Shown here in pieces: positions 3,468 to 32,386 of a stretch of DNA of 64,000 bases. The stretch comes from a virus. Under the pieces are notes generated by a model, which was not told the origin of the DNA, did no database searches, and saw nothing but the letters and a program-made list of their open reading frames with translations. Each line of letters opens with the position of its first letter. Position 1 is the stretch's first letter. A program made the translations under genes and the position numbers. The stretch lies in the UHGV virus genome UHGV-1351770. One strand, 5' to 3'.

Positions 3468-3514
3468 GCACAAAATGATTTGACACAATAGGAAGGATTT
3501 ACAGCACTTTTGCA

Positions 3515-3554
3515 CAGACTTATCCACAGGTTATCCTACTGTATAAATATACAG
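3515..3554. repeat. Left copy of 40-bp inverted repeat (CAGACTTATCCACAGGTTATCCTACTGTATAAATATACAG) containing a DnaA box (3520-3528) and a LexA-box-like CTGT-N8-ACAG palindrome (3537-3554)
   Basis: Reverse complement of 7348-7389 matches with a single mismatch. Confidence 0.85.
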
Positions 3555-3820
3555 GGTAAAAAGGTAGTGTTAACAACTGCAATCAATTTTGAGCGGCCTA
3601 AAACGCTTTCTAACGAGCTAAATGCGGTGGGGTAATATTAAAGTAAAGCCTTCACCCGTCGCCCTGGTGGCTTCGCCGTGTTTTGCTCTTTATTGCACCG
3701 CTGCGCGGTTATCACAAAACTAGGCGTTAGGCAAGGAAAATAAAAAGGTAAAATAATATTTGCCCCTAGAAAGAAAATACCTTTATCATTCACTCACCGA
3801 TTAACGAGGGGGCCGAACAA

Positions 3821-4807
3821 ATGAGGCTATATAGACCAGATAACGCAACCGTCTTAAAGGGTGCGCTGCGTAACCTGCTGGACGGTAGCAGAACAACCAG
3901 CATCAAACATTTTGTTTTCAATATTGAAACTATTCATCATAATTTTTTTGATGATTATGATGCTTATAATATGAATAGTTTTCTACCGTTATATAAACAA
4001 GGGGCAACGCTTGTTTTATATAATCAGGATTATCAATTGCTCACTAGTCGAGGGCCGGATACTGATTTCATAATCGTAAAAGGTAGCACAGTAAAAGCCT
4101 ATGATACTGGGGCGGGCTTAGAAGTTTTCACACTAGAAAATTATGAAGCCAACCCCAATGATCTTTATGATGTAGAAAATTTTCTCGATTCATTTTGGCG
4201 TCATTTATCAGTTGGGTGGAATCGGTCGGATTATGACGGGTATCGTTTTGCGGCTGTAATGGCTTTTGATGATAACGGTAATTTTTTGCTACCGCCGGAA
4301 TTATATGATCGTGTATATGAAGGCGATATTGTTGACGCCGGATTCTCTTTCGAAAGAGAAGAAAGTATTGGCAATATAGAAAAACATGCTGTAAATTCTA
4401 GCACTCAAAGCGTTAACACTCAAATCACTGAAAACAAAGGAAAAAATACCATGACCAAGATCGCTAACATTGTTGCCGCTAATAAATCCGCTGTTGTAAA
4501 CGCTGCAAAACTGGAAGCGGGTAAAATTGCACTGACTCAAATTACGAAAGTAGCGGCTAAAAAAGCACCGTTTATGATTAAAGGTTATATTGATACGCCT
4601 ATCGGTCGAGTAGTGATTGCCAACCTGCTAAGCGTAGCGGTTGACCAGTACGCCCCAAGCAACCAGAAAGCGAAAGCAGTAGCAGGGGCAGCTATGGAAG
4701 CGGCAATGTTGGAAATGGTGCAAAGTTTTAACATCGCTGAAATGATTGATGAAATGGTAAAAGGTATCGATATTTCTACCTTCACCACTAGCACCGAAAG
4801 CGAATAA
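3821..4807 (+). CDS. Hypothetical protein (328 aa), first gene of IR-flanked plus-strand cassette
   Basis: Long ORF, GAGG RBS, followed by hairpin terminator. Confidence 0.6.
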   Translation: MRLYRPDNATVLKGALRNLLDGSRTTSIKHFVFNIETIHHNFFDDYDAYNMNSFLPLYKQGATLVLYNQDYQLLTSRGPDTDFIIVKGSTVKAYDTGAGLEVFTLENYEANPNDLYDVENFLDSFWRHLSVGWNRSDYDGYRFAAVMAFDDNGNFLLPPELYDRVYEGDIVDAGFSFEREESIGNIEKHAVNSSTQSVNTQITENKGKNTMTKIANIVAANKSAVVNAAKLEAGKIALTQITKVAAKKAPFMIKGYIDTPIGRVVIANLLSVAVDQYAPSNQKAKAVAGAAMEAAMLEMVQSFNIAEMIDEMVKGIDISTFTTSTESE

Positions 4808-7480: not shown

Positions 7481-7660
7481 TCCGTTCTTAAATGCAAATC
7501 ATTATCATTTGCATTTCACTACCTAACTAATAATCATTCCACTTTTTAAATGAGAATCATTTCACTTTCTGAATAGTTCTCATCCCCTTTCTTAAATGAG
7601 AATAATTATCATTCGCATTTCACTTTTTAAATGAGATTGATTCTCATTATCATTCGCATT
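7481..7660. repeat. Cluster of palindromic and direct repeats (TGCAAATCATTATCATTTGCA; three copies of TTAAATGAGA..ATCATT(C)GCATTTCAC)
   Basis: Seen in sequence; resembles repeat/palindrome-rich injection-stop region of T5. Confidence 0.6.
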
Positions 7661-7691
7661 CAGGCGAGCAGGGCAATTGCCCTGCGCTTTT

Positions 7692-8290
7692 GTGCAAATC
7701 CGACATTTGCTCCACGGGTTACGTGCTGGCGTGTATGTGCGAATCCGACAATTTTTGGTAGTGTGCAAATCCGACCAGAAAAATTTTTATAGTGTGCAGA
7801 TCCGACAATGAATTTTTCCAAAAACTCCAGCAATCCGATGCTGCGCATCAATCCTGTGGAATTAGCTAGAATATGTGCAGATCCGACATGAGTTTATTTG
7901 TGCGAATCCGACAAGATTTTTGTGACTTCGATTGGAGGGTGTGTGATTATGTGGGTTTGGGGAGAAGATGAGAGAGTGAGAGAAAATTAGGGGAACTGCG
8001 AGAGGGGCGCATGTTTGGTGCGGAGCACCTGATTTGCGGGGATTTTGGGGAAGATGTAAGATAATTTGGGAAGATTTGAGATTAGTGGAGATAAAGTAAA
8101 ATTTTATTAGCAAAATGGGGCAAAATAGCTTGACAAGTGAAAATTTCTGTGGCTCTAAAAACTCAGGCAATCATGGGCCTTCGGCCCGAAATAATGCTGC
8201 CATTTTCAGGAGATTATGTGTCCATGAAAACCTAGGCAATTGTGCAAATCCGACCAGTTTTTAAACTTATGTCAGTGTGCAAATCCGACA
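7692..8290 (+). repeat. Eight dispersed direct copies of 14-bp motif GTGC(A/G)(A/G)ATCCGAC(A/C) at irregular spacing
   Basis: Copies at 7692, 7737, 7764, 7794, 7876, 7900, 8242, 8277. Confidence 0.8.
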
Positions 8291-8333: not shown

Positions 8334-8403
8334 AACCGCCCTCCCTATAACCGCCCTGTATTAACCGCCTATTGCTGAAGTTTCTAGGAACATGAAAACC
8401 GCC
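8334..8403 (+). repeat. Four copies of AACCGCC(T) at 8334, 8349, 8363, 8397
   Basis: Seen in sequence. Confidence 0.6.
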
Positions 8404-8777
8404 TGAGTTGACGAGAGTTTTCCTAAAAACTTAGGAGTCTACTAGAAAGTGTTGTGCCATCCTAGCAGATGAGCGGCAACCGGTGTATCATCTTGAACAC
8501 AGATATTGCCTTTAAATATTTTTAGTTATTTAAAAGTAAATATACCCCCATTTCATGAGAGTTAGCCCCTCTAGGCGCGTGCGATTTGATACATCCTCCT
8601 AAGTCTCGGTGTGGAAGAACAATTGACGAGAACCTGCGAGCAGAACCGTCATCAAGTGTTTTCCTACGAGGAATGATGTAAATCTACGGCCTAGAGGTAA
8701 AAACAAGTTGATGTTTTTAATCTATGAGATTATTATAACATACAGCTCAAATAATGTCAAGAATTTTTCGTTAACGT

Positions 8778-9503
8778 TTATACATCGTGATTGACTTTGA
8801 GTATGACTCCCTTCGATGCCATGAAAAGGAATGTTGCTAGGTAAGATGACTCGGAATTTAGCGCAGAATAATCTACACTTCCTCTAGGTCTAGTTTCTTG
8901 TTTAGTGTCAAGAATTGTTGATATATCAAACTTAACAGACTTAGCAACTTTTCTAGCTTGTTCAGGATCACGTAAAATTTCAAAGTGAGCAGCATCTAGA
9001 ATAGGGTTAGATGTTGTTGAGTCGTCAACTATACTTAGATGAACCTGCGCAAGTGTAGATACGATTCCTAGCTTTAATTCAGATAGAGAAGAATAAGGTG
9101 GTTCCACTTTCTTTGTAAGTCTAGGGAGATGATCGTATTTACATTGCTTTTGAGGAATCATCAGAATATTTGGATAACATTCTAGACAAGCCTTTGCATT
9201 TCCTTCTTTAAAATACGGGAGTTCTTTATCTGCAAAGACGTGGAATGAATCTGCTGAGAATCCTTTAATAGTAGGATCAACAGTTTGAATTAAACGACGT
9301 AAACTAATATAAGAAGGTGCTAGAGTAACTTCTCCTGCATCTTTATTATACTTGGGTTGCCCACTAGCATTAAGGTATGCAGGATAGAACTCTGCACAAA
9401 ATGCTACTGCATGTGCCTCTAACTCATTAAGCTGAGAAACACATTTCCCATTACAAGCTCTAGCTAACTTAATAATCTCTGCTAAATTCTTTTTAATACT
9501 CAT
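8778..9503 (-). CDS. Hypothetical protein (241 aa), last gene of AT-rich coupled operon
   Basis: ORF, ATGA overlap with upstream gene; AT-rich codon usage distinct from core genes. Confidence 0.6.
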   Translation of the reverse strand: MSIKKNLAEIIKLARACNGKCVSQLNELEAHAVAFCAEFYPAYLNASGQPKYNKDAGEVTLAPSYISLRRLIQTVDPTIKGFSADSFHVFADKELPYFKEGNAKACLECYPNILMIPQKQCKYDHLPRLTKKVEPPYSSLSELKLGIVSTLAQVHLSIVDDSTTSNPILDAAHFEILRDPEQARKVAKSVKFDISTILDTKQETRPRGSVDYSALNSESSYLATFLFMASKGVILKVNHDV

Positions 9504-9988
9504 ATATCATCCGCCTGTCCACTAGCTGTTGCTGCTAATCTTCTTTCACGTTTCAAGATGCCGTTAATAATATCTTTCGCATCAGATTTATTTTTGGCTG
9601 TTCTCTTTATTAGGTCAAATAATACTCTCGGATTAGGAACCTCAAACTCTTCCTCTCCCAGACATATAGTATACTCTTTCAAATGTAATTGAGTATATTT
9701 AGTAAGTGGGAAAGACTCTAGTATTCCCGTACTATCAACAGGAATATGTTCTTTCATAGGAATCACTGCACATTTCTGTTCTTTTAAGAAATTCAGGAAA
9801 CCAATAGTTTGGACATCTTCTGAGTCATAAGAAACTTTGCTTATAGCTTCAATAAGCGTAATAGCTTCAGAAGTTAGTACAGATAGATAACGCCGTACAT
9901 TAGAACCATCAGTTATTTGTAGAAAGTAAACCGACGAGTCCTCCGTCGGTTCAAACAGTATATTAGCGAATTTAAATGCTTCTCTCAT
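9500..9988 (-). CDS. Hypothetical protein (162 aa)
   Basis: ORF, overlapping start/stop coupling. Confidence 0.6.
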   Translation of the reverse strand: MREAFKFANILFEPTEDSSVYFLQITDGSNVRRYLSVLTSEAITLIEAISKVSYDSEDVQTIGFLNFLKEQKCAVIPMKEHIPVDSTGILESFPLTKYTQLHLKEYTICLGEEEFEVPNPRVLFDLIKRTAKNKSDAKDIINGILKRERRLAATASGQADDI

Positions 9989-10602
9989 TAATTACCCCTC
10001 TTATCTTCATTAAGAGCAGCTCCCAACGCCTCCATAATAGCATCCTCTAAACTTCCATGTTGACTAGGATTATTAAAATGAATAGTACAAACAGAACTCC
10101 TAGAAACTCCAGCATCCGCAGGTGCTACGCTTCGCATATCAGATTCAAAAGCTTCTTGAGTATGCTTCAACTGTACAGAAGGGCCGTAATCTTCCACAAA
10201 CTTATATGACTGCGTACTACTTACCACACCCCCACAAGGAACATTGTGCATATCCGACATTAATCTTTTATCGGAGTTATTCAGCATTGAGATTGTCCCT
10301 GACTGCCACGGATCTCTAATAGTTACTGGAGTACTAGGGCGGTTCACCTCAGTCTTCACAAGTTTGTACCCTGCATCGATTAATGCGTTAATTAGATTAT
10401 CAGCTGGGATGCGAGCCTTGCCAAAAATCTTACGAGCATCTTCGAGCTTATCCTCAAGATCTTTACATGCTCTAAGGTCATTGTGTGCAAATGTTAGCTT
10501 CATAGATTTGAATTGTACAGTAGCAGTTAAATCTTTAAAGCTATAATCCCATGTGTTCAGTTCATGATCCGGTACTACTTGAATAGGTTGTTGTGTAAAC
10601 AT
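9988..10602 (-). CDS. Hypothetical protein (204 aa)
   Basis: ORF, 1-nt overlaps on both sides. Confidence 0.6.
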   Translation of the reverse strand: MFTQQPIQVVPDHELNTWDYSFKDLTATVQFKSMKLTFAHNDLRACKDLEDKLEDARKIFGKARIPADNLINALIDAGYKLVKTEVNRPSTPVTIRDPWQSGTISMLNNSDKRLMSDMHNVPCGGVVSSTQSYKFVEDYGPSVQLKHTQEAFESDMRSVAPADAGVSRSSVCTIHFNNPSQHGSLEDAIMEALGAALNEDKRGN

Positions 10603-10787
10603 TATTTATTCTCCAGTTTGTCTAACAGTTTATGGGCTGCTAGATTATATTGTTTAAGTTCACGATTAAGGATTTGGTTCTCACACTTTAACTCTAGATT
10701 CTTATTATTAAGAATATTGCAGATTAGTAGAAGTGCTAGTATTAGTAACAGAGAACCTACGAGCATTAAAAGAAAAAGAGTTTCCAT
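10602..10787 (-). CDS. Small N-terminal TM plus coiled-coil protein (61 aa)
   Basis: ORF; hydrophobic N-terminus then heptad-like region. Confidence 0.45.
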   Translation of the reverse strand: METLFLLMLVGSLLLILALLLICNILNNKNLELKCENQILNRELKQYNLAAHKLLDKLENK

Positions 10788-11032
10788 TATTTAATTCCCA
10801 TGTAACGTTTGAGATATATGATGAAGTCTTCTGCTGTATGCTCTGCGCTACCTTGAGCTACGAATAGCTTGAGAGCTTCACGTTGTAATTTAAGAGCAGC
10901 CAACTCACCACGTAATTTTACTAGATCTTCTGCTAGTTCTCTAGCTCTACGCATAATAGCAAAAGATACAAGTACTACGATGAATAACATAACTACTAAA
11001 ATAATTGCTATGATTTCCATATTAACATCCAA
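10787..11032 (-). CDS. Small N-terminal TM plus coiled-coil protein (81 aa)
   Basis: ORF; same architecture as neighbour. Confidence 0.45.
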   Translation of the reverse strand: MDVNMEIIAIILVVMLFIVVLVSFAIMRRARELAEDLVKLRGELAALKLQREALKLFVAQGSAEHTAEDFIIYLKRYMGIK

Positions 11033-11298
11033 CTTTTATCACACATTTGGGCATGCTCTATCAATTCATTTATTGATATACTGGCATCATAAATACTCTC
11101 TAGTATATACCTTCTGTCAAATTCGTCAACCAAATATTCTACGTTATTTATTACTACTTTATACAGATCTGGGACTAGTGAGCATGTATTTGGTATGGGG
11201 CGACTGCTTAAGTCTATTTCATTATAGCCCCACGTTGTTTTAAATAGTTTGTTACTAAGTGCTGCTAATGGGTTTGACCATATAATATAGCTACTCAC
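11008..11298 (-). CDS. Hypothetical protein (96 aa)
   Basis: ORF. Confidence 0.4.
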   Translation of the reverse strand: MSSYIIWSNPLAALSNKLFKTTWGYNEIDLSSRPIPNTCSLVPDLYKVVINNVEYLVDEFDRRYILESIYDASISINELIEHAQMCDKSWMLIWKS

Positions 11299-11782
11299 TA
11301 TTTATCTCCATTCTTAACTTTGAAAACTTATTATACCAAACTATATGATTATCGTCAATTACAAATTTATGATAACATGCTGGCACGGTATAATTTCCAT
11401 AATCCGTGACACGCTGCACAACCTTGTGTGCACACAGTCGACAACCATGCCCTTCTAAATGAGATCTAGCAGTTTGCCAATAATACCCTTCATGATCTGG
11501 ACAATAAATCTCGACTTGCTGTTGCATTGTTTTGTAATTTACACGCTCATACCCGAAGAAAGCTCCATGAACTGCAACAGCTTTCTTGATGAATATAAGA
11601 TTTAGTGCTTCTTGTTGAAAGTCGGGATGTAGCTGCTTAATCTTAGTTCTATTAATAGATCCATCAGATTTGATAAACCTATTTATTGGGAAGTTATTAG
11701 CTTCCTCAATTAATAATTCATTTACTTTTTCTCTCATATTAGATATTCTCACAGCTAAGGTAGAAACATTCGTAAGCATCAC
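11291..11782 (-). CDS. Hypothetical protein with Cys/His cluster (CPDH..HLEGHGCRLCAH), possible zinc-binding nuclease-like fold
   Basis: ORF; motif seen in translation; function inferred weakly. Confidence 0.4.
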   Translation of the reverse strand: MMLTNVSTLAVRISNMREKVNELLIEEANNFPINRFIKSDGSINRTKIKQLHPDFQQEALNLIFIKKAVAVHGAFFGYERVNYKTMQQQVEIYCPDHEGYYWQTARSHLEGHGCRLCAHKVVQRVTDYGNYTVPACYHKFVIDDNHIVWYNKFSKLRMEINSE

Positions 11783-11963
11783 CAGTAAACTCTTTATCTT
11801 GTATTATACACTTAGCCTGGTCTTCTGGTACTCCGGCATCTAATAATTGTTGTTTACTTGGCTTTTCAGCGAATACCTTTACAAAATATTCACCATCCTG
11901 ATTATACTCATTTATATCTCTAGTAAGGACATATACTTGCATTTGAAATTCCTTGAAACACAA
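11739..11963 (-). CDS. Hypothetical protein (74 aa)
   Basis: ORF. Confidence 0.4.
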   Translation of the reverse strand: MCFKEFQMQVYVLTRDINEYNQDGEYFVKVFAEKPSKQQLLDAGVPEDQAKCIIQDKEFTGDAYECFYLSCENI

Positions 11964-11990
11964 AAGGCCAGAACAATTAAGTCCTGGCCT
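11950..11990 (-). terminator. Rho-independent terminator on minus strand (AGGCCAG..CTGGCCT hairpin followed by TTTTGTGTTT in transcript)
   Basis: Seen in sequence. Confidence 0.6.
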
Positions 11991-11996
11991 CTAGAA

Positions 11997-12368
11997 TTAA
12001 TGAAGTTGTTTACCACTTCTTAAAATAGTGGCCGTTTCCATAAGATTTAATGTTGTATCACGCTTTTTGATTTGTTTGTCAAGTTCATCTGTACGTTTAC
12101 CAATGTAAGCGTTAATAGCCATATTCATAGCTGAGGCGAGATCTTCTTTGGTTATCTCTTCGTTATCTAAAGCTAATTTAGCTAAAGAATCGAAAGTACT
12201 AGAAAGTCCTATAAGATCTGAGGTTTCACTGGCCAAAATAGGGTTAACATTATCTATTGTTACTTCTAACATAGAGTTAACAATATCTTCTCCGTCTACT
12301 AGACCAGATTCAATATTACTCTCCCATTCCTTCATCTGCTCCAGCAATGGATTTTTCTTTTCTGTCAT
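11997..12368 (-). CDS. Hypothetical acidic protein (123 aa from internal start)
   Basis: ORF; start moved to ATG with AGGAAA RBS to reduce overlap with upstream gene. Confidence 0.45.
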   Translation of the reverse strand: MTEKKNPLLEQMKEWESNIESGLVDGEDIVNSMLEVTIDNVNPILASETSDLIGLSSTFDSLAKLALDNEEITKEDLASAMNMAINAYIGKRTDELDKQIKKRDTTLNLMETATILRSGKQLH

Positions 12369-12777
12369 GGTAGAGGTTTCCTGTGTCAGTTGGTAAGAAG
12401 GATGATTGCGTTTTAGGTGGATGTTGTTTAGCAATCCAGTTAAGAATCAGCACACGACTAGGAACAATATCGGTATTATACCAAAAATCATGAACCCATT
12501 GACGAGCATCTTCAAACTTACCAAATTTATATGCTTTCTTAAACAATTTAAATCCAAAACAATCTGGTGCAAAGTCTACTTCACGATACTGAATTACTTT
12601 AGAACCAGTTAGGTCTTGGATCGCTGCATTAATTTCTGTATGAGAGAATTTTGTTTCGTGAAACTTATTAAAGAATCGGTAGTTGAAGCGTCCGTTCGTT
12701 TCGACAAATAACTGGATAAAGAGATCGTTAAATTGGTTATCAAACCAGTAATTCTGTAGTTGTTGTAGTGCTGTCAT
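12316..12777 (-). CDS. Hypothetical protein (153 aa)
   Basis: ORF. Confidence 0.5.
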   Translation of the reverse strand: MTALQQLQNYWFDNQFNDLFIQLFVETNGRFNYRFFNKFHETKFSHTEINAAIQDLTGSKVIQYREVDFAPDCFGFKLFKKAYKFGKFEDARQWVHDFWYNTDIVPSRVLILNWIAKQHPPKTQSSFLPTDTGNLYHDRKEKSIAGADEGMGE

Positions 12778-16997: not shown

Positions 16998-17432
16998 TTA
17001 TCTCCAGTGGTTAGTATGCTTCTCAGCTTCCTCATCGTTAGGCTCAAAGACAACATGGCAGTCAACCGCTTCCCAAAAAGCCTCACGGATTAAAGAGTTT
17101 TTAGCTGAAATATCTAATTCTCCCCACTCTTCTAAAGTCTCTAGGTCTGTATCAACTTCGGTATCACAGCCAACCAGCCCCAAAGAAACAACAATAGTAA
17201 CGCGATCTTCACGTTGTTCGGGATAAACATCAGCATATTCCCAAGCAGCTTCTTCAACATAATATTGTTGTTCCTTTTCTGGGAGTGACTTATACTTTTC
17301 TTCTGTAATACCCATCTCAACGGCGCGGGTGCCACAAACTACATTGTTATTAATAATTAGATATGCATAGTTCATCGTAATATTCCTGTTTCTTGAAGGG
17401 CAAAGAAAGCCATTAATATGACTAAAATCCAT
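16998..17432 (-). CDS. Hypothetical acidic protein (144 aa)
   Basis: ORF. Confidence 0.45.
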   Translation of the reverse strand: MDFSHINGFLCPSRNRNITMNYAYLIINNNVVCGTRAVEMGITEEKYKSLPEKEQQYYVEEAAWEYADVYPEQREDRVTIVVSLGLVGCDTEVDTDLETLEEWGELDISAKNSLIREAFWEAVDCHVVFEPNDEEAEKHTNHWR

Positions 17433-17556
17433 ACAAAGATATGTGACATAATCATATTAATGTCTCTCTCATCAATTTATATAAGTATTATACCAAAATT
17501 TTTAGCAAAAAGCAAGTAAAATAAAAGCCTGATCCGCTAAGATCAGGCTTTGTTTA

Positions 17557-17847
17557 TTAGTCCTCTGGATTATCATCCAGGAAATTTTTAATAGCTTCGT
17601 GCATAGTTTCTTTACGAAGCTGACGTCCAATCAAAATATGATTAGCTTCTACTCGACCATTAGGTAAGCGATCTGCCAGAACTACTACAGGAACAGCCCT
17701 TACTCCGAACTTCTGCATTAATTCTGTATTATCAGTCTCTTTATGGACTTCCAAATTATATTCATTGACTACTTTATCAAATACTGGCTCGAAAAGTTTA
17801 CACGGGTTACAGGTGGAACCTTTTAATAGATAGACTAATTTAGACAT
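17557..17847 (-). CDS. Thioredoxin/glutaredoxin-like protein (CNPC redox motif)
   Basis: CxxC motif plus thioredoxin-fold-like hydrophobic pattern; start set at MSKLVYLL with AAAGGAAA RBS. Confidence 0.45.
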   Translation of the reverse strand: MSKLVYLLKGSTCNPCKLFEPVFDKVVNEYNLEVHKETDNTELMQKFGVRAVPVVVLADRLPNGRVEANHILIGRQLRKETMHEAIKNFLDDNPED

Positions 17848-26752: not shown

Positions 26753-26828
26753 TGGTAGTTAGTAGTGGATTTGAACCACTGTAGTCGCTCCGTATGAAGG
26801 AGGTGCATAACCACTCTGCCAACTAACT
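26753..26828 (-). tRNA. tRNA-Met (anticodon CAT)
   Basis: Manual cloverleaf fold: 7-bp acceptor, T-loop TTCAAAT, anticodon loop TTCATAC, encoded CCA. Confidence 0.75.
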
Positions 26829-26924
26829 ATTATGTTTTACTAGACTAAGTAAGTATTCTTTATACTCTTTGGACCAATTAGCTTTTTTAAACTTTCCTGG
26901 ACGCATAGTCTTAGTTCCTAAATT

Positions 26925-27001
26925 TGGTACTCCGGGAGGGATTTAAACCCCCGATCTCTCGGTTATCAGCCGAGTGCTTTAGATCGCTAAGCTACCGAAG
27001 C
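26925..27001 (-). tRNA. tRNA-Ile (GAT)
   Basis: Manual fold: D-stem GCTT/AAGC, anticodon stem CTCGG/CCGAG, loop CTGATAA. Confidence 0.8.
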
Positions 27002-27751
27002 ATTAACATTTTACAGTAGAACGTTTACCATTTCTAGGCGCACCTGGAAGTCGAGCACGTTCTGCCATTCTTCTCTTAATCTTTGAGATATTTTCTAGTG
27101 TTTGTTCTTCAGGCTTAATGCCTGAAACACTACACCACTGATTACCATCCCATGCAGTAATGATCATAACACCATTACCCATAATCTTTTCTGTGAAAGT
27201 AATTCTCATTATAGCAACTCGTCTAAGCAAGAGGTATATTTAAATTTACCATCTTTATCTACTTTGATTTCAACCTCCGCTCGTGGTACTTGACGAACTA
27301 CACCATGAATCATCTTATAGCGAATGCCTTTAGCTGGTTCACGATCTTTTGGAAATACTTGCTTAACCGTTACTACCTTGTACTCATCATGCGGTGTTAG
27401 TACAACTACTTGATCGCCCTCTTTGATTTTCCAAGAGCCAGGAAATTCGTAAGTATAACGTTGACCACCAGTTTGGAACACAACAGAAAGATAACGTTTC
27501 ATTTGGTTTCCCTCTCATTAATTTATATAAATATTATAACAAGAAATAAGAGAGAAGGCAAATGAATTTTTAATAAAGTTTAGTCACTTCATAAACTATA
27601 CTACGAGATTCTTTATTACGTTGTATTAAATTAGCGTATGCTTCTTCAGCTTCATTTTTAGTATTAAAGTCTATAACGTGGGAGGTATTAGTTCTGTTTG
27701 ATTGGCTATACCAGATAACTACTAGGAGTTTAAACATACTAGTCCTTAAAT

Positions 27752-27838
27752 TGGTGCTGGGCACAGGATTCGAACCTGCAACGGGATTACTCCTCCTGAT
27801 TACAAATCAGGTGCATTCAACCATTCTGCCAACCCAGC
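27752..27838 (-). tRNA. 87-nt class II-type tRNA (3-bp D-stem, 11-nt D-loop, 15-nt variable arm, A73) carrying anticodon TGT (Thr codons)
   Basis: Manual fold: acceptor GCTGGGT/GCCCAGC, anticodon stem CCTGA/TCAGG, loop TTTGTAA. Confidence 0.55.
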
Positions 27839-27846
27839 AGAACCCG

Positions 27847-28011
27847 TTATTTCAACGGGATTTCTTTTTCAATAACAGGAGACTTATCAGTCATGACTGT
27901 CATTGCCATTTGTTGTAGAAATTCAAAGGTGAAGGCTACACGTTCTTCACCAATCTCTACTTCTACACGTTTCTTTTGTTTGTCGATCTTAACTTTTAGG
28001 TTATCAGCCAT
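27847..28011 (-). CDS. Hypothetical protein (54 aa)
   Basis: ORF below track cutoff; manual translation. Confidence 0.3.
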   Translation of the reverse strand: MADNLKVKIDKQKKRVEVEIGEERVAFTFEFLQQMAMTVMTDKSPVIEKEIPLK

Positions 28012-28255
28012 TAGAGATTACAGTACTGGTAGTTGGCAGTATTACAGATGAAGCAACAGTGTTTAAATGCTTTCTCCAGTCTAGGTTAAATTGTTTTCGA
28101 AACTCTTCATAAGGTTCTTCTGGATAAAAGCTAAAACCTCCTTTCTCATCATTTAGGATAACAGAGCCGTCAGTTTGTTCGTATGCTCGGTATGTTTCTC
28201 CAATAATAATAACTCGTTTATCGGTACTTTTATTACGAAACTCGAAAACGTGCAT
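28004..28255 (-). CDS. Hypothetical protein (83 aa)
   Basis: ORF. Confidence 0.45.
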   Translation of the reverse strand: MHVFEFRNKSTDKRVIIIGETYRAYEQTDGSVILNDEKGGFSFYPEEPYEEFRKQFNLDWRKHLNTVASSVILPTTSTVISNG

Positions 28256-28261
28256 AATGTT

Positions 28262-28337
28262 TCCTTAAAGTTGGAGCGGCTAGAGGGAATCGAACCCTAC
28301 TCAGCGAGGCTTGGAAGGCCTGCGACACAACCCGTGT
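28262..28337 (-). tRNA. tRNA-Gly (TCC)
   Basis: Manual fold; anticodon loop CTTCCAA; T-loop TTCGATT. Confidence 0.7.
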
Positions 28338-28345
28338 GCTTAACC

Positions 28346-28421
28346 GCTTATTGTTTGGCTGGAGAAGGAGGAATTGAACCTACCATTAACGGAGTCAAAG
28401 GCCGTTGTGCTAACCGTTACA
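28346..28421 (-). tRNA. tRNA-Gln (TTG)
   Basis: Manual fold; acceptor TGGAGAG/TTCTCCA; loop CTTTGAC. Confidence 0.7.
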
Positions 28422-28427
28422 CTACTC

Positions 28428-28503
28428 TCCAATTATTTGGCTGGGATGCCACGGATCGAACGTGGAACCTTCGGAGTCAGAGGCCGACGATCTGCCAATT
28501 GAT
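28428..28503 (-). tRNA. tRNA-Gln (CTG)
   Basis: Manual fold; perfect acceptor and T-stem; D-stem GATC/GATC; loop CTCTGAC. Confidence 0.75.
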
Positions 28504-28525
28504 CTACATCCCAATAATTTTTATT

Positions 28526-28720
28526 CTACGGAAAAATTATTGTTGGCTCAGATTCTTCCAAACGTTTGCCTTCATGATCTACTCGAATAACTCCGCATCC
28601 CTCGCAAATCACAACAGCACCGTTGCCTTCTTTAACTTCAGCTTCTGTAATCAAACCAGAAAGATCACCAGTATCTCTGCCCCACATATCAATGGAGCAT
28701 TGTTTGCAGAAATCAGCCAT
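28526..28720 (-). CDS. Small zinc-ribbon-like protein (CxxC..CxxC, 64 aa)
   Basis: ORF. Confidence 0.4.
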   Translation of the reverse strand: MADFCKQCSIDMWGRDTGDLSGLITEAEVKEGNGAVVICEGCGVIRVDHEGKRLEESEPTIIFP

Positions 28721-28745
28721 ATTTTATTTCCTATTTAAGTTAATT

Positions 28746-28822
28746 TGGGGTGGCTAGTGGAATTCGAATCCACATAGGCCTGATTCACAATCAGGATCAT
28801 TAACCAATTATGATATAGCCAC
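28746..28822 (-). tRNA. tRNA-His (GTG)
   Basis: Manual fold; acceptor GTGGCTA/TAGCCAC, discriminator C, loop TTGTGAA. Confidence 0.8.
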
Positions 28823-29191
28823 AATTGAAAACTCGCAGGGTTAGCGAAACCTTCCTCAATTAGCATGTTCTAGAATACTAATCAAGTTATCTCCTATTGC
28901 GCGCAGCTCAAGACGAGTACGAATTTTCAATTGTGGCGGCTCTCAGAAACTCTTCTACTCTAGTCTTAGCAGCTTACTCCCGAACGCATGTCGGGGAAGT
29001 CTTACCAAGAGCATCAAATAGCACCGTTACACTTTGAGCCATAGATATATCAAGAAGCAGAAGGACTTGAACCTTCACGAGATAGACCATTTATCTCAGC
29101 CGCTTTATGAGGTATGTTGCAGGGAGTGGATGTTCCCTATAAACCTTTTAGGCAGCCCCGTCTACCGATTCCGGCATACTTCAAGAATTTT

Positions 29192-29374
29192 TTATAAACC
29201 AGCAGAAGCCTCATTTAAAGCATCAACAATAGCCTGTTGTTGCGTCCATCCTCTACCAGTAGAATTAACATGTGGAAGATATACTTCCCAATAACCATCC
29301 TCTAGTAAGGTTATTTGTGCACTAAACTCTGTGCCATCATTTAGTGTAACCTTCACAGTTTTTGTTAAAGACAT
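29192..29374 (-). CDS. Hypothetical protein (60 aa)
   Basis: ORF. Confidence 0.35.
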   Translation of the reverse strand: MSLTKTVKVTLNDGTEFSAQITLLEDGYWEVYLPHVNSTGRGWTQQQAIVDALNEASAGL

Positions 29375-29390
29375 ATATTATCCTATAAGT

Positions 29391-29480
29391 TGGCAGAAGA
29401 TAATGGAGTCGAACCATCACCGTATCGCTACAGCGGGCTGGTTTTCAAGACCAGTTACGTACCACTACGTCCTATCTTCT
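29391..29480 (-). tRNA. tRNA-Ser (TGA), class II
   Basis: Manual fold; anticodon stem CTGGT/ACCAG, loop CTTGAAA; 19-nt variable arm; G73. Confidence 0.8.
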
Positions 29481-29486
29481 ATTGTT

Positions 29487-29577
29487 TGGCGGAAGAGGAG
29501 AGACTTGAACTCTCAAGCCGTTTTACCAGTCAGCCACTTTCCAAGCGGTTTTCGTCACCAATTCGATTTGCTCTTCC
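29487..29577 (-). tRNA. tRNA-Ser (GGA), class II
   Basis: Manual fold; perfect acceptor and T-stem; loop TTGGAAA; long variable arm; G73. Confidence 0.65.
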
Positions 29578-29688
29578 AATAATAAGATGATGCCTCTATC
29601 ACACCAGGCAGTTACGCCTCGCTGGGATTCGAACCCATTAAAACAGCTCAACCGAGATAGTAGGTTTAATTTACTCTGACCATCAAAT

Positions 29689-29773
29689 TTGGTGGGGCTA
29701 GGGAGACTCGAACTCCCACGCATTTAAGCTACGGAATCTAAGGCCGTATTGTCTACCAGTTCCAGCATAGCCC
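29689..29773 (-). tRNA. tRNA-Leu (TAG), class II
   Basis: Manual fold; acceptor GGGGCTA/TAGCCCC, A73, T-stem GGGAG/CTCCC, long variable arm. Confidence 0.75.
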
Positions 29774-29778
29774 CGAAT

Positions 29779-29852
29779 TTGGTGGAGAAAGAGGGAGTTG
29801 AACCCTCGTCTTCTGCGTGCAAAGCAGATGTTCTACCATTAAACTATATCCC
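29779..29852 (-). tRNA. tRNA-Ala (TGC)
   Basis: Manual fold; anticodon stem TCTGC/GCAGA, loop TTTGCAC; acceptor has one U-U mismatch. Confidence 0.7.
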
Positions 29853-30232
29853 CAAATTCTTTAGTTTACTAAGGCTATTAGCTCGGCGTAACTACAGCAC
29901 CTTCGCTTCGAGCGGAAGGAACTGCGTCATCTCGCAAACCCAATACACTATTCAGTTGCCGCTGAATCTAGTGGACTAATCTAGAACTTCTCCCGAATCG
30001 TAGGGATCGTGCTTTTTGGCAGCCAGTCCTAGGTCGAGCTAATACCTTAGTGAACTAAATTGATGGATATCAGACTAATTTTGCTACGACGTTTATCCTG
30101 GGGATCTCTTTTTCGGTAGCTCTGCTAGTGTAGACGTCATACACCTGGTATCTAGGCAGCTATTTTCGCATCAATTTATATACATATTATATCAAGAAAT
30201 TAAGCATCAAGCAACTGCGTTTTTCTTGAAAT

Positions 30233-30311
30233 TGGTAGATCGCCTGGGACTCGAACCCAGAACCTTCCGATTAAAAGTCGGATGCTACTAAACCTATTGA
30301 GCTAGCGATCT
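30233..30311 (-). tRNA. tRNA-Lys (TTT)
   Basis: Manual fold; anticodon stem TCCGA/TCGGA, loop CTTTTAA. Confidence 0.75.
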
Positions 30312-30312
30312 A

Positions 30313-30480
30313 TTAGTAACCATTGTATACTTCTTTAATAGAGTGAACTTTCAGGTAAGGGTGATTAGTACTAAACTCTACCATTACTTCATCCCAATTT
30401 TTACCATAATGAGCGAGTAAGGATTTTGATGTATTCTTACCTAACCGTTTGTCACTTACTACTAATCGAAATACTTTCAT
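30313..30480 (-). CDS. Hypothetical protein (56 aa)
   Basis: ORF below track cutoff; GAGGAT RBS. Confidence 0.35.
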   Translation of the reverse strand: MKVFRLVVSDKRLGKNTSKSLLAHYGKNWDEVMVEFSTNHPYLKVHSIKEVYNGY

Positions 30481-30500
30481 TTCGAAATCCTCTATTAAAA

Positions 30501-30577
30501 TGGAAGCGGGTGCAGGAATCGAACCTACCTCTTTCTAGCTTATGAGACTAGCGATCTCTACCAGAGATCTAACCCGC
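30501..30577 (-). tRNA. tRNA with CAT anticodon (Met, fMet or lysidine-Ile)
   Basis: Manual fold; D-stem ATCT/AGAT, anticodon stem CTAGT/GCTAG, loop CTCATAA. Confidence 0.7.
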
Positions 30578-30584
30578 AATTGTT

Positions 30585-30662
30585 TGGTCTCCGTGGGAGG
30601 ATTTGAACCCCCGACCCTATCGCCCCAAACGAAACGCTCTGGCCAAACTGAGCTACACGGAG
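30585..30662 (-). tRNA. tRNA-Pro (TGG)
   Basis: Manual fold; D-stem GCTC/GAGC, loop TTTGGGG with G37. Confidence 0.7.
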
Positions 30663-30666
30663 AATA

Positions 30667-30825
30667 TTATTTCTTCAACCACAACAAAGATAAGCCCAGC
30701 ATACTAAAGCCGCTAACTAATCCGATACATTTTTCTTCTATAGTAAAAGTATTTAGATTAAATGCTGTTATAGCTATTGGCACACACCATAATGCCATAA
30801 AAACTTGAGCTATCTTGTGTTTCAT
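30667..30825 (-). CDS. Small membrane protein (about 52 aa)
   Basis: ORF below cutoff; GAAGGAAAG RBS; hydrophobic. Confidence 0.35.
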   Translation of the reverse strand: MKHKIAQVFMALWCVPIAITAFNLNTFTIEEKCIGLVSGFSMLGLSLLWLKK

Positions 30826-31278
30826 TTTGCTTTCCTTCTCTTCACTTTATAAAATATATTATACAGAGAATTAGGCAGAATAGCAAATGAATTTTTAATA
30901 AATTTACTTATTGTGTAGGCCACCTGGAGGCTATGAACCCCACGGCTGACAAAGAAGTTTGCGAGACCTCTCTTAAATGCCAGAATAGACCCGCCGATCT
31001 ATCGGAACCTACATAATAAGTAAACTTTATAGTGTCATTCTAGACAGGACTCGAACCTGTTATCACTTGTGCGGACTTACGAGAACCATTCTTTCACTCG
31101 AATCGAACGAGCTTCTGCCCTCGCCAAGCTGGTTTCCCCATCAACCACGCTAGAATGTTTAATTGTTTTCAGTGCAAGAGTCCGAGTCTTGGACACGACC
31201 GCTTCGCAAGTACATAGGCAGCTTATCATGAGTCAGCACTTCCGAATTGCTAGCTCCGTGCTCTGCACTGAAATTTTG

Positions 31279-31626
31279 TTAATTTAATAGTAAAGTACGA
31301 TCTACTTCACCATTAATTGTTCGGCATTCTTCTGGGATTGCCGGAGTGGCCTTATATTCCCACCATTCAGAACCGTCGTATTCACCACGTTCTAACCAAG
31401 TTCCATCAGTAAACCACACGTTACCATAAAGCAATTGCCCACCGAAACCAGAATCATATTTAAAGTCTAGATTATTTAGAAAATCTTCAATATCTTTTTC
31501 TGTATAACCTATGGGTAATACCCAAACTTCTTTGTCCCCATAATAACCGAATTCTATCTTAATACACTTAACTTTAGAATTAATATTCTTTAGGGCAAGT
31601 AACAACTCTTCTTTAGCATTAATCAT
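31279..31626 (-). CDS. Hypothetical protein (115 aa)
   Basis: ORF. Confidence 0.45.
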   Translation of the reverse strand: MINAKEELLLALKNINSKVKCIKIEFGYYGDKEVWVLPIGYTEKDIEDFLNNLDFKYDSGFGGQLLYGNVWFTDGTWLERGEYDGSEWWEYKATPAIPEECRTINGEVDRTLLLN

Positions 31627-31652
31627 AGCATATTTCTCGTGCTAGTTTAGTT

Positions 31653-31729
31653 TGGCGCGACCGATGGGATTCGAACCCACATTCTCTCCCGTGACAGGGG
31701 AGTACCATTACCAAGCCAGCCCCGGTCGC
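31653..31729 (-). tRNA. tRNA-Asp (GTC)
   Basis: Manual fold; perfect acceptor GCGACCG/CGGTCGC; anticodon stem CTCCC/GGGAG, loop CTGTCAC. Confidence 0.8.
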
Positions 31730-31738
31730 ATAATTCAT

Positions 31739-31924
31739 TTACTCAGCTTTGAGTTTTTCAATAGCTGCATTAAGTTCCTTAAGAAACTCTTTTCGTACAT
31801 TAAGACGGTTGAGACTTACTAATATATCATGTTTAAGTTCTTCGATGTATTTCTTCTCAACTTCAATATTGTTGATAGTGCTATCACGATGAACTTCTAG
31901 CTGCGCAATTACATTCTTGGACAT
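31739..31924 (-). CDS. Hypothetical coiled-coil protein (61 aa)
   Basis: ORF. Confidence 0.35.
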   Translation of the reverse strand: MSKNVIAQLEVHRDSTINNIEVEKKYIEELKHDILVSLNRLNVRKEFLKELNAAIEKLKAE

Positions 31925-32026
31925 GCTTGTTTCCTCAGTTATTAATGAAAGTGGTATCTGTGGCTGAATTCGATGTCAGCAATGATAGCTGGTTGGCTAC
32001 CGGTTTACTTAACTCTACACAGAATT

Positions 32027-32109
32027 TGGCGGGCCGTGTAGGATTCGAACCTACGTTGTCTTTCGACATGGATTAACAGTCCACCGCCAAACCGCTTGGC
32101 TAACGACCC
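32027..32109 (-). tRNA. 83-nt tRNA with anticodon GTT (Asn codons), a 13-nt variable arm (GTC-GAAA-GAC hairpin) and G73
   Basis: Manual fold; D-stem GCCA/TGGC; anticodon stem GTGGA/TCCAT, loop CTGTTAA; perfect T-stem. Confidence 0.6.
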
Positions 32110-32337: not shown

Positions 32338-32386
32338 ATTTATCTTGTTCTGTCATGTTGCTTCTCCAGTTCAATTTATGTAATTA

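What the first reader, a model, noticed from the sequence alone, without database searches (positions are those of the whole stretch)
8778..11032. AT-rich, translationally coupled five-gene operon of unknown function next to the repeat region
The genes run 81 aa (TM plus coiled coil), 61 aa (TM plus coiled coil), 204 aa, 162 aa and 241 aa. Each adjacent pair shares a stop/start overlap (ATGA or single-nucleotide). Composition is visibly more AT-rich, with TTA/CTA/AGA/AGT-heavy codon usage, than core genes such as nrdA or thyA. That suggests horizontal acquisition. None has a recognisable domain. Its position as the first operon after the first-injected DNA, with two small membrane proteins leading three soluble proteins, fits a host-interaction, anti-defence or exclusion module. 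It is a leading candidate for an undescribed system.
Basis: partly seen in the sequence, partly recalled or inferred. Interest (0 to 1): 0.7.

Follow-up and report, generated by a model that had tools for sequence, protein, structure and literature searches.

The report
Mosaic tail of T5-like early operon
The five genes are real, tightly packed early genes of a T5-like phage. They are not one imported "system" but a mix of clade-wide genes of unknown function and a swappable end cassette, and that cassette carries an unannotated, strongly promoted, highly structured candidate RNA gene.

Summary
The ORFs and their 1-nt/4-nt stop-start overlaps are real, lie on the minus strand and are under purifying selection. 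The unit is not a self-contained, horizontally acquired five-gene operon.

The window is a T5-like phage (96% to Salmonella phage GSP044). Genes 1-3 are homologs of T5.021, T5.020 and T5.019. Gene 1 really starts at ATG 11020 (77 aa, Pfam DUF7237) and overlaps the upstream T5.022 homolog, so the coupled chain continues upstream.

Record counts, against 442 records that carry the core helicase at >=80% identity:
- 204-aa: 440
- 61-aa: 431
- 77-aa: 355
- 241-aa type: 284
- 162-aa: 19

Past the constant 61+204 pair lies a middle slot, either empty or holding one of three unrelated genes. Then comes a terminal slot with a 241-type or T5.018-type gene, whose N-domains are homologous. GC equals that of neighbouring early genes; only the GC3 of the two distal genes is low.

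New: directly after the last gene sits a consensus promoter plus a ~195-nt rod-like RNA (z = -6.1). It occurs in 10 sequence classes, co-segregates with the terminal-gene allele and is annotated nowhere I looked.

The parts
11330..11358 (-). Promoter-like site (TTGACG-17-TGnTATAAT, 11/12) inside the T5.023 homolog; likely start of the transcription unit that includes the five genes
   Evidence: T5 records annotate a promoter at the equivalent place.
11008..11298 (-). 96-aa gene, T5.022 homolog.
   Evidence: The overlap is conserved in 18 loci. dN/dS is 0.17-0.48.
10787..11020 (-). T5.021 homolog, Pfam DUF7237. N-terminal TM (residues 3-23), an RRAR motif, then a leucine-zipper-like coiled coil. 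Predicted N-out/C-in.
   Evidence: Found in 355 phage records. Absent together with T5.022 in 6/26 loci.
10602..10787 (-). Gene 2: 61 aa, T5.020 homolog (phrog_5799). TM (residues 3-23) plus a coiled coil. The most constrained gene (dN/dS 0.02-0.2).
   Evidence: Found in 431 records.
9988..10602 (-). Gene 3: 204 aa, T5.019 homolog (phrog_5271). Soluble. Only its N-terminal beta-beta-beta-alpha-alpha-beta domain (residues 18-88) is modelled with moderate confidence.
   Evidence: (440 records).
9500..9988 (-). Gene 4: 162 aa, a rare middle-slot gene with no PHROG or Pfam family. Present in 19 records. Fused in frame to a 241-like protein in phage UTK0009.
   Evidence: dN/dS is 0.06-0.10.
8778..9503 (-). 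Gene 5: 241 aa, the terminal-slot gene (phrog_8993). Alleles range from 27% to 99% identity. Its N-terminal ~110 residues are homologous to T5.018, which one T5 record annotates as a 33.8-kDa early protein.
8732..8760 (-). Perfect sigma-70 consensus promoter with extended -10 (TTGACA-17-TGnTATAAT). Its -35 hexamer starts 18 nt after the stop codon of gene 5.
   Evidence: The hexamers are invariant across sequence classes while the spacer varies.
8532..8726 (-). Candidate unannotated small RNA (~195 nt): a 5' hairpin, a long rod-like imperfect hairpin (130 nt) and a terminator-like hairpin (8562..8544) followed by a U-run
   Evidence: MFE is -64.2 kcal/mol, z = -6.1. The same architecture appears in 10 sequence classes. 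The sense strand is more stable than the antisense in 9/10 classes. No Rfam match. No public record annotates it.

Best explanation
The five ORFs are genuine early genes, expressed after the second step of DNA transfer. They form the promoter-distal end of the leftmost, leftward-transcribed early unit of a T5-like (Markadamsvirinae) phage.

They are a composite of four modules, not one system:
1. An often-present pair, T5.022 and T5.021 (96 aa + 77 aa).
2. A clade-universal, translationally coupled pair, T5.020 and T5.019 (61 aa + 204 aa).
3. A middle slot that is empty or holds one of at least three unrelated genes; here it holds the rare 162-aa gene.
4. A terminal slot holding one fast-evolving family (here 241 aa; T5.018 in T5), plus a separately promoted, highly structured ~195-nt RNA gene that co-varies with the terminal-gene allele.

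Inferred mechanism (not shown):
- The two small N-out/C-in membrane proteins present cytoplasmic coiled coils. The 61-aa protein tethers its coupled partner, the 204-aa protein, to the inner face of the membrane.
- The 162-aa and 241-aa proteins act together.
- The distal cassette is a dispensable, diversifying host-interaction module. Recombination exchanges it among T5-like phages, probably promoted by the T5orf172-type endonuclease genes found inserted in it.

The biochemical activity of every protein remains unknown.
For: Identity and synteny with T5 and GSP044.

Real genes and conserved overlaps.

Distribution, against a denominator of 442 records.

Modular architecture in 26 IMG/VR loci.
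- The middle-slot genes are mutually unrelated (hhalign probability <1%).
- The terminal-slot families share an N-domain (hhalign E = 2.9e-6, probability 88%).

Link between the 162-aa and 241-aa genes: a single 401-aa ORF in UTK0009 is 56% identical to the 162-aa protein over its residues 1-147 and 54% identical to the 241-aa protein over residues 161-401.

Early expression of homologs:
- In Bas33, genes 0164-0166 are transcribed 20 min after infection at 154-1737 TPM.
- They drop about 9-14-fold when second-step transfer is blocked (PMC13250531 Dataset).
- T5p017 (= T5.018) is annotated as a 33.8-kDa early protein made from the left-terminal SalI fragment.

Topology: no K/R residues before the TM segment, and 4-6 K/R just after it in the 77-aa protein.

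Endonuclease ORFs carrying T5orf172/MUG113 domains lie between the terminal gene and the RNA in 5 loci.

RNA:
- Consensus promoter.
- z = -6.1, and -3.8 to -6.7 across 10 sequence classes.
- Top ~1% of the genome background.
- Strand asymmetry in folding stability.
- The 241-type 5' motif is present in 18/18 sequences with a 241-type gene and in 0/12 with a T5.018-type gene. The latter carry a divergent RNA of the same architecture.
- RNA similarity tracks terminal-protein similarity.
Against: - No functional evidence exists for any of the proteins. Both AlphaFold2 models are poor (pLDDT 49 and 52), and the fold searches are uninformative.
- The membrane-tether idea rests only on strict co-occurrence, the overlap and the predicted topology.
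- The UTK0009 fusion comes from one lineage. It could be a sequencing frameshift, or a lost stop codon with the internal Met still used.
- In Bas33 the distal genes have 5-10x higher TPM than the two small proximal genes. A single simple operon does not predict this.
- Expression of the RNA itself was not observed. Column-wise covariation is modest, with 5-6 compensatory pairs. In 3 of 9 classes tested the rod interior alone is not significantly structured.
- Co-variation of the RNA with the terminal gene could be mere physical linkage.
Confidence: 0.6

Rival explanations
1. One reading: a discrete, horizontally acquired, five-gene anti-defence or exclusion system in which all five products work together.
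For: The genes are tightly overlapped. The products are unknown. The block sits next to the injection-stop region. GC3 is lower than the genome average.
Against: - The five genes do not co-occur: 440, 431, 355, 284 and 19 records.
- Loci lack genes 1, 4 or 5 in many combinations.
- The coupling extends to the upstream gene.
- GC equals that of the neighbouring genes.
- Homologs occur only in T5-like phages.
- There is no PADLOC hit.
Confidence: 0.07
2. The terminal protein (241-type or T5.018-type) and the adjacent structured RNA form a cognate ribonucleoprotein. The 162-aa protein is an accessory subunit. The RNA gene is the first second-step DNA to enter the cell, so the module would act early, for example as a decoy or anti-defence RNP.
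For: - The RNA motif and the terminal-gene type co-segregate strictly: 18/18 against 0/12.
- RNA similarity tracks protein similarity.
- The linkage persists even when an endonuclease gene is inserted between them.
- The RNA has its own consensus promoter and a stable conserved architecture.
- The 162-like and 241-like proteins are fused in UTK0009.
Against: - Adjacent sequences in a recombining cassette co-vary through linkage alone.
- No RNA-binding domain is detectable.
- The AlphaFold2 model is unusable.
- The rod interior turns over completely between classes whose proteins are 46-70% identical.
Confidence: 0.15
3. The rod-like element is not a free-standing functional RNA. It would instead be a structural or regulatory DNA or RNA element at the border between unique DNA and the terminal repeat. 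Candidates are an insulator or terminator, an RNase III processing site that stabilises the 3' end of early mRNAs, or a palindrome used in replication or packaging.
For: - It lies between the end of the early unit and the repeat-rich injection-stop region.
- No canonical terminator follows gene 5.
- The antisense strand also folds well, at -44 to -63 kcal/mol.
- The conserved first ~20 nt resemble the downstream region of other strong T5 promoters (plus my own recollection of the PN25-type promoters).
Against: - A perfect promoter with invariant hexamers but a variable spacer sits immediately upstream in every class.
- A hairpin and U-run follow in the same orientation.
- The sense fold is more stable than the antisense in 9/10 classes.
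Confidence: 0.25
4. The cluster mimics the FtsQLB subcomplex of the divisome. The two TM+coiled-coil proteins would resemble FtsL and FtsB, and the 241-aa protein would resemble FtsQ. Together they would block host cell division.
For: - The 241-family profile hits P. aeruginosa FtsQ in the PDB (E = 0.014) with a local 'YEHLPRL' match.
- The 77-aa protein hits the FtsL NCBIfam models at E = 0.011 and 0.046.
- From my own knowledge, small phage membrane proteins that block division are known, for example SPO1 gp56.
Against: - The scores are far below cut-offs (15.6 bits against 55; 13.4 against 50).
- None of 19 family members hits the Pfam FtsQ or POTRA models.
- E. coli FtsQ chains (which I recall are in the PDB) were not hit, and hhalign against E. 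coli FtsQ gives probability 0.6%.
- The 241-aa protein has no obvious N-terminal hydrophobic segment or signal peptide (by inspection of the sequence; no predictor was run).
- The predicted topology of the small proteins (N-out/C-in) is opposite to that of FtsL and FtsB.
- The 77-aa gene is absent in 6/26 loci.
Confidence: 0.04
5. The small membrane proteins (77 aa and 61 aa, possibly with the 204-aa protein) act at the inner membrane. They would provide superinfection exclusion or membrane resealing after DNA transfer, as T4 Imm and Sp do.
For: - The proteins are single-pass membrane proteins expressed early.
- The left early arm contains several more small TM proteins: T5.027 and T5.029-031 are annotated with TM domains.
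- The 61-aa protein is highly conserved.
Against: There is no sequence similarity to any known exclusion protein. This is purely an analogy of architecture and timing.
Confidence: 0.15

Closest known systems
Phage T5 genes T5.022-T5.018 (NC_005859; T5p021-T5p017 in AY692264)
   Same: The position and orientation are the same, next to the left terminal repeat. T5.021, T5.020 and T5.019 are direct homologs of genes 1-3, and in the T5 locus (L023) the protein identities are 87%, 90% and 71%. A promoter lies inside T5.023 and a terminator lies upstream. T5 also has a promoter and a ~200-nt structured non-coding stretch after its terminal gene.
   Different: T5 has a single 294-aa terminal gene, T5.018, after an 81-nt gap, where this phage has the 162-aa and 241-aa genes. 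T5.018 shares only an N-terminal ~110-residue domain with the 241-aa protein. The RNA sequence is different (classes H-J against class A).
Variable accessory or anti-defence islands of T5-like phages, such as the tRNA-region island encoding Rad (bioRxiv 10.1101/2023.03.15.532788)
   Same: Both are early-expressed, variably present small genes of unknown function in a region prone to endonuclease-associated mosaicism.
   Different: This is a different genomic location: Rad and the island lie in the tRNA-rich region. No anti-defence activity has been shown or predicted here. Genes 2-3 are universal in the clade, not variable.
Bitopic TM + leucine-zipper proteins FtsL and FtsB, and small phage membrane proteins acting early (SPO1 gp56, T4 Imm/Sp; from my own knowledge)
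   Same: The architecture of genes 1 and 2 is an N-terminal TM helix followed by a short coiled coil. The timing is early.
   Different: The predicted topology is the opposite (C-terminus in the cytoplasm). The scores are far below family cut-offs. There is no sequence relationship to gp56, Imm or Sp.
Phage- and host-encoded structured small RNAs and long hairpin RNase III substrates (T7 R-sites, retron msr-msd ncRNAs; from my own knowledge)
   Same: The element is ~175-205 nt, has its own strong promoter, and has a long imperfect hairpin closed by a long-range stem.
   Different: There is no Rfam family and no reverse transcriptase nearby. No repeats of the type III antitoxin kind were evident by inspection; I ran no dedicated repeat search. 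No antisense target exists in the 64-kb window. Expression has not been demonstrated.

Membership tests
Pfam DUF7237 (PF23884) | Whole-protein score above the gathering cut-off (27 bits) with full-length model coverage | tested here: met
   The 77-aa protein scores 153 bits, E = 2.5e-45, matching model positions 1-77/77.
PHROG families 6021 / 5799 / 5271 / 8993 (all of unknown function) | Significant full-length HMM match | tested here: met
   E-values are 8e-46, 1e-36, 4e-126 and 4e-115 for the 77-, 61-, 204- and 241-aa proteins. The 162-aa protein has no PHROG.
Single five-gene operon | Its own promoter directly upstream of gene 1, with no coupling to the preceding gene | tested here: not met
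   The start codon of gene 1 overlaps the upstream 96-aa gene by 13 nt. The nearest strong promoter-like site is 11358..11330, upstream of that gene.
Single five-gene operon | The genes are inherited and conserved together as a set | tested here: not met
   Record counts are 440, 431, 355, 284 and 19. In the 26 loci, every module is independently present or absent.
Single five-gene operon | No internal terminator, and genes on one strand with short or negative spacers | tested here: met
   No terminator-like site lies between 11032 and 8778 on the minus strand. The overlaps are 1, 1, 1 and 4 nt.
Horizontally acquired island | Composition deviates from the flanking genes of the same genome | tested here: not met
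   Pooled GC is 36.8% against 36.7% for the neighbouring early genes. Only the GC3 of the two distal genes is low.
Horizontally acquired island | Closest relatives lie outside the host lineage | tested here: not met
   All homologs among 5.8 billion clusters and 1.84 billion representatives lie on T5-sized contigs or in T5-like phages.
Known anti-phage defence or candidate defence proteins (PADLOC-DB) | Significant HMM match | tested here: not met
   Only chance-level hits were found (E >= 0.03).
FtsL (NCBIfam NF053549, NF049847) | Score above the curated cut-off (55 or 50 bits) | tested here: not met
   The scores are 15.6 and 13.4 bits.
FtsL / FtsB | N-in/C-out topology, with the coiled coil in the periplasm | tested here: not met
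   By the positive-inside rule the proteins are N-out/C-in: no K/R residues before the TM and 4-6 after it. This is a prediction only.
FtsQ / DivIB (POTRA + beta domain) | Match to the Pfam POTRA_1 or FtsQ_DivIB_C models, or to the host's own FtsQ | tested here: not met
   None of 19 family members hit these models at E <= 10. hhalign against E. coli FtsQ gives probability 0.6%. The only hit is marginal, to P. aeruginosa FtsQ (E = 0.014).
Bacterial or phage small RNA gene | Sigma-70 promoter and intrinsic terminator in the same orientation, flanking a non-coding stretch | tested here: met
   A 12/12 consensus promoter with an extended -10 lies at 8760..8732. A hairpin at 8562..8544 is followed by a T-run. 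Both are conserved across classes.
Bacterial or phage small RNA gene | Conserved secondary structure beyond chance | tested here: met
   z = -6.1 here and -3.8 to -6.7 in all 10 classes, against a genome background mean of -1.0 and sd 1.4. Compensatory pairs number 5-6. The rod interiors alone reach z <= -2.9 in 6/9 classes.
Bacterial or phage small RNA gene | A discrete transcript is detected | not testable with these tools
   Only gene-level counts are available from the Bas33 RNA-seq. The raw reads (PRJEB101990) could not be mapped here.
Any Rfam family | Covariance-model score at the gathering threshold, or E <= 1 | tested here: not met
   There is no hit on 8400-8800.

The most novel reading that the evidence does not exclude
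The hypervariable end cassette of T5-like early DNA would encode a previously unrecognised protein-RNA module. It would consist of a fast-evolving terminal protein (241-type or T5.018-type, here with a 162-aa partner) and a cognate, strongly transcribed ~195-nt rod-like RNA. The RNA gene lies on the first unique DNA to enter during second-step transfer. Together they would act as a diversifying counter-defence or host-takeover RNP.
Probability: 0.13. Interest if true: 0.75.

Novelty: new member of a known kind. Interest (0 to 1): 0.35.

Why it matters
T5 is a classical model phage, yet most of its early genes have no known function. This analysis removes a tempting but wrong reading, that the block is an imported five-gene defence-related system.

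It replaces that reading with a testable map:
- A clade-universal pair, a membrane anchor plus a soluble protein (T5.020/T5.019).
- A swap-in middle gene.
- One rapidly diversifying terminal family.
- An unannotated, strongly promoted, structured candidate RNA gene at the border between the terminal repeat and unique DNA.

If the RNA is real it adds a non-coding gene to the T5 map. It would sit in the ~1.66-kb region that Davison (bioRxiv 10.1101/866236) describes as non-coding, seemingly to the right of the annotated repeats and palindromes. It would also be a natural candidate for early regulatory or counter-defence roles. If it is not real, the locus is simply ordinary phage accessory dark matter.

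Tried and rejected
1. Family and sequence searches. Pfam, NCBIfam, PADLOC and PHROGs gave no functional assignment. PDB sequence and profile searches gave nothing except a marginal FtsQ hit.

2. The FtsQLB-mimic idea. I followed it up and rejected it.

4. HMMER profile of the 204-aa family against 1.84 billion representatives. It found only T5-like relatives. It also hit three giant surface proteins, through a repeat-amplified short motif ('..LI.AL..AGYK.V..') in what I read as Cna-B-, MucBP- and LRR-type repeats. I judged those hits spurious.

5. Remote homology between the alternative middle-slot genes: none.

6. An antisense-target search for the RNA within the window found nothing above the shuffled controls.

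7. Rad, the T5-family anti-retron protein, is a different gene in the tRNA region.

8. Literature searches for T5.018-T5.022, T5p017-021, DUF7237 and T5 small RNAs found nothing on these genes or on the RNA.

9. Column-wise covariation in the rod interior could not be assessed. MAFFT cannot align the sequence classes there.
Full report
**What the window is.** The region 8500-11400 matches 439 phage records. The best is Salmonella phage GSP044 (Tequintavirus), at 96% identity over the full length. The gene order matches phage T5 next to its left terminal repeat and injection-stop signal. T5 has a single 294-aa gene, T5.018, where this phage has its 162-aa and 241-aa genes.

**Checking the observation.**
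- The five ORFs exist on the minus strand at the stated coordinates.
- Read directly from the sequence, the junctions are TAATG three times (1-nt overlap) and ATGA once (4-nt overlap).
- The first gene most likely starts at ATG 11020, giving 77 aa, not at TTG 11032. That is how T5 and GSP044 annotate it, and Pfam DUF7237 covers residues 5-81 of the long form as model positions 1-77/77.
- That ATG lies 13 nt inside the upstream 96-aa gene, the T5.022 homolog. This overlap is conserved in 18 related loci.
- The nearest good promoter-like site (TTGACG-17-TGnTATAAT) is at 11358..11330, inside the T5.023 homolog, where T5 records also annotate a promoter. A strong terminator lies further upstream at 11992..11963.
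- All the genes evolve under purifying selection, with dN/dS of 0.02-0.48 across the six ORFs tested. That includes the rare 162-aa gene at 0.06-0.10, so none is a spurious ORF.

**Composition.** Pooled GC of the five genes is 36.8%, against 39.1% for the whole window. The 18 neighbouring early genes (11-20 kb) average 36.7%, so the block does not stand out locally. The conserved 204-aa gene sits at the 66th GC percentile. The two distal genes do have low GC3 (3rd and 13th percentile), and CTA and AGA are about twofold enriched. It is a general property of the small left-arm early genes, not a signature of import.

**Distribution.**

| Protein | Phage records (tblastn) |
|---|---|
| Core origin-binding helicase at >=80% identity (denominator) | 442 |
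| 204 aa | 440 |
| 61 aa | 431 |
| 77 aa | 355 |
| 241-aa family, alleles from 99% down to 27%, including Klebsiella and Serratia T5-likes | 284 |
| 162 aa | 19 |

Searches of 5.8 billion protein clusters and 1.84 billion representatives found relatives only on T5-sized contigs. The few giant surface proteins hit by the 204-aa profile are repeat-amplified matches to a short motif, and I judge them spurious.

**Modular architecture.** In 26 IMG/VR loci I mapped all the proteins and clustered every ORF.
- T5.022 and T5.021 are jointly missing in 6/26 loci.
- The 61-aa and 204-aa pair is constant.
- The next slot is empty or holds one of three families: 113-119 aa, 127-129 aa, or 162 aa (only 2/26). 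hhalign finds these families mutually unrelated.
- The terminal slot holds a 241-type gene (15 loci) or a T5.018-type gene (11 loci). These two families share a homologous N-terminal ~110 residues (hhalign E = 2.9e-6, probability 88%; pairwise BLAST E = 0.003).
- In five loci an extra ORF follows the terminal gene. The two I scanned, one of each length class, carry T5orf172/MUG113 (GIY-YIG-like endonuclease) domains. Mobile endonucleases are a known source of mosaicism in T5-like phages (PMC10644984).
- Different genes of the cluster have different nearest relatives. Against phage H8, for example, the 61-aa protein is 98% identical, the 204-aa protein 78%, and the 162-aa and 241-aa proteins 94%.

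**A link between genes 4 and 5.** In Epseptimavirus UTK0009 the gene after the T5.019 homolog is a single 401-aa ORF. Its residues 1-147 are 56% identical to the 162-aa protein, and residues 161-401 are 54% identical to the 241-aa protein. The internal Met is retained. This suggests the two act together. The caveat is that it comes from one lineage, and a sequencing frameshift cannot be excluded.

**Expression.** In the published Bas33 data set (PMC13250531; RNA-seq 20 min after infection):
- The homologs bas33_0164, 0165 and 0166 (T5.021, T5.020, T5.019) have 154-1737 TPM.
- The next gene, bas33_0167, is 726 nt, the length of a 241-type gene; I did not verify its identity. It behaves alike (log2 fold change -4.2).

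The st0 T5 record annotates the T5.018 product as a 33.8-kDa early protein synthesised from the left-terminal SalI fragment. So these are bona fide early, second-step genes. The 5-10-fold higher TPM of the distal genes compared with the two small proximal genes remains unexplained.

**Function.**
- Pfam gives only DUF7237. NCBIfam, PADLOC and PDB sequence searches give nothing significant.
- The AlphaFold2 models are poor: 241-aa pLDDT 49; 204-aa pLDDT 52, with only a beta-beta-beta-alpha-alpha-beta N-domain (residues 18-88) at pLDDT 62-77.
- The 77-aa and 61-aa proteins have an N-terminal TM helix (residues 3-23) followed by 3-4 heptads of leucine zipper. They have no K/R residues before the helix. 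Just after it the 77-aa protein has 4-6 K/R and the 61-aa protein 1-3. They are therefore predicted N-out/C-in, with cytoplasmic coiled coils.
- From the strict co-occurrence and overlap of the 61-aa and 204-aa genes I infer, but have not shown, that the 61-aa protein tethers the 204-aa protein to the inner face of the membrane.

**The FtsQLB lead.** The 241-family profile gave a marginal hit to P. aeruginosa FtsQ (E = 0.014), with a local 'YEHLPRL' match. The 77-aa protein gave marginal FtsL hits. I tested this coincidence and it fails on five counts:
- No family member touches the Pfam FtsQ or POTRA models.
- E. coli FtsQ is not matched (hhalign probability 0.6%).
- The 241-aa protein has no obvious membrane anchor or signal peptide, by inspection of its sequence only.
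- The predicted topology of the small proteins is the reverse of FtsL and FtsB.
- The 77-aa gene is often absent.

I rate this explanation at about 4%.

**The unexpected part: an RNA gene.**
- Eighteen nucleotides after the stop of the 241-aa gene lies a perfect sigma-70 promoter with an extended -10 (8760..8732).
- It is followed by ~195 nt without a plausible ORF, ending in a hairpin (8562..8544) and a U-run.
- The RNA folds at -64.2 kcal/mol against -41.5 +/- 3.7 for dinucleotide shuffles (z = -6.1). Only 4 of 426 background windows in this genome reach z <= -6: two in the tRNA cluster and repeat region, and two unexplained windows at 17.4 and 40.5 kb.
- The promoter with its 5' motif occurs in all 18 sequences that have a 241-type gene and in none of the 12 with a T5.018-type gene.
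- The T5.018-type loci, T5 included, carry a near-consensus promoter and a different ~200-nt sequence at the same place.
- Ten sequence classes, unalignable in the middle, all fold into the same architecture: a small 5' hairpin, one long rod-like imperfect hairpin, and a terminator hairpin. Their z-scores run from -3.8 to -6.7.
- The sense strand is more stable than the antisense in 9/10 classes.
- The rod interiors alone reach z <= -2.9 in 6/9 classes.

The weaker points:
- Column-wise covariation is modest, at 5-6 compensatory pairs.
- The conserved first ~20 nt resemble the downstream region of other strong T5 promoters, so they probably belong to the promoter.
- RNA similarity tracks terminal-protein similarity. 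That fits either a functional pairing or simple linkage within one cassette.
- There is no Rfam family, no antisense target in the window, no annotation in any record inspected and no mention in the literature I could search.
- Expression was not verified.

**Verdict.** Its boundaries and its composition argument are overstated. The interpretation as a discrete, horizontally acquired five-gene system is not supported. What is there is the promoter-distal tail of a T5-type early unit. It combines clade-universal genes of unknown function with a recombining end cassette. The proteins belong to already catalogued but uncharacterised families, so the finding itself is ordinary phage 'dark matter'. 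The candidate RNA gene and its linkage to the terminal protein are the only elements that look new and worth an experiment.

Noticed in passing
window 8532-8760 (minus strand): A perfect sigma-70 promoter is followed by a ~195-nt rod-like structured RNA (z = -6.1) and a terminator-like hairpin. It is unannotated in all records inspected. It occurs in at least 10 sequence classes across T5-like phages and co-segregates with the allele type of the adjacent terminal gene.
   Followed up: partly
L029 (Salmonella phage UTK0009, OQ359889) 3501-4706: A single 401-aa ORF fuses a 162-like N-terminal part (56% identity) to a 241-like C-terminal part (54% identity), with the internal Met retained. This is either a natural gene fusion or a frameshift artefact.
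   Followed up: partly
L012 8797-9525, L004 8324-9052, L006/L009 8333-8689, L020 8647-9003: Extra ORFs of 242 aa or 118 aa lie between the terminal gene and the RNA promoter. The two I scanned (L012 and L006) carry T5orf172/MUG113 (GIY-YIG-like endonuclease) domains. These are likely mobile endonucleases that drive the mosaicism of this cassette.
   Followed up: partly
window 11291-11737 (minus; T5.023 homolog, 148 aa): By BLAST this gene clusters with the T5orf172-type endonuclease ORFs of other loci (cluster c0), though Pfam finds no domain in it. It may be a degenerate relative or share a domain with them. It also contains the promoter-like site for the downstream genes.
   Followed up: no
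window 12316-12777 (minus): This 153-aa ORF is 97% identical to T5.026, whose product is a published E. coli RNA-polymerase-binding protein (PMC7472727). It is the only experimentally characterised gene I identified in this neighbourhood.
   Followed up: yes
window 17401-17600 (minus) and 40501-40700 (minus): These 200-nt windows have extreme folding z-scores (-6.6 and -6.3). They are neither tRNAs nor Rfam hits, so they may be further structured RNAs or strong terminators.
   Followed up: no
window 7500-7700 (both strands): The repeat and injection-stop region folds strongly on both strands (z = -6.6 and -5.5). That fits the palindromes and inverted repeats annotated in T5 record AY587007.
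   Followed up: no
Bas33 RNA-seq table (PMC13250531 Dataset, genes bas33_0164-0167): The two small proximal genes have 154-369 TPM. The distal 0166 and 0167 have 1120-1737 TPM. This suggests an internal promoter, RNA processing or differential stability within the supposed operon.
   Followed up: no
window 26753-38281 (minus): A cluster of 21 tRNA genes. ARAGORN and Rfam disagree on two of them: tRNA-Tyr at 32943-33030 is called only by ARAGORN, and a tRNA at 34490-34564 is called only by Rfam.
   Followed up: no
L023 (= T5) 8570-8620, just after the T5.018 stop: T5 has a GC-rich hairpin (CTCGGTGCAC...GTACCGAG) between T5.018 and the promoter of its version of the RNA. It looks like a terminator for the early unit. 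This window has no counterpart at the equivalent position.
   Followed up: no
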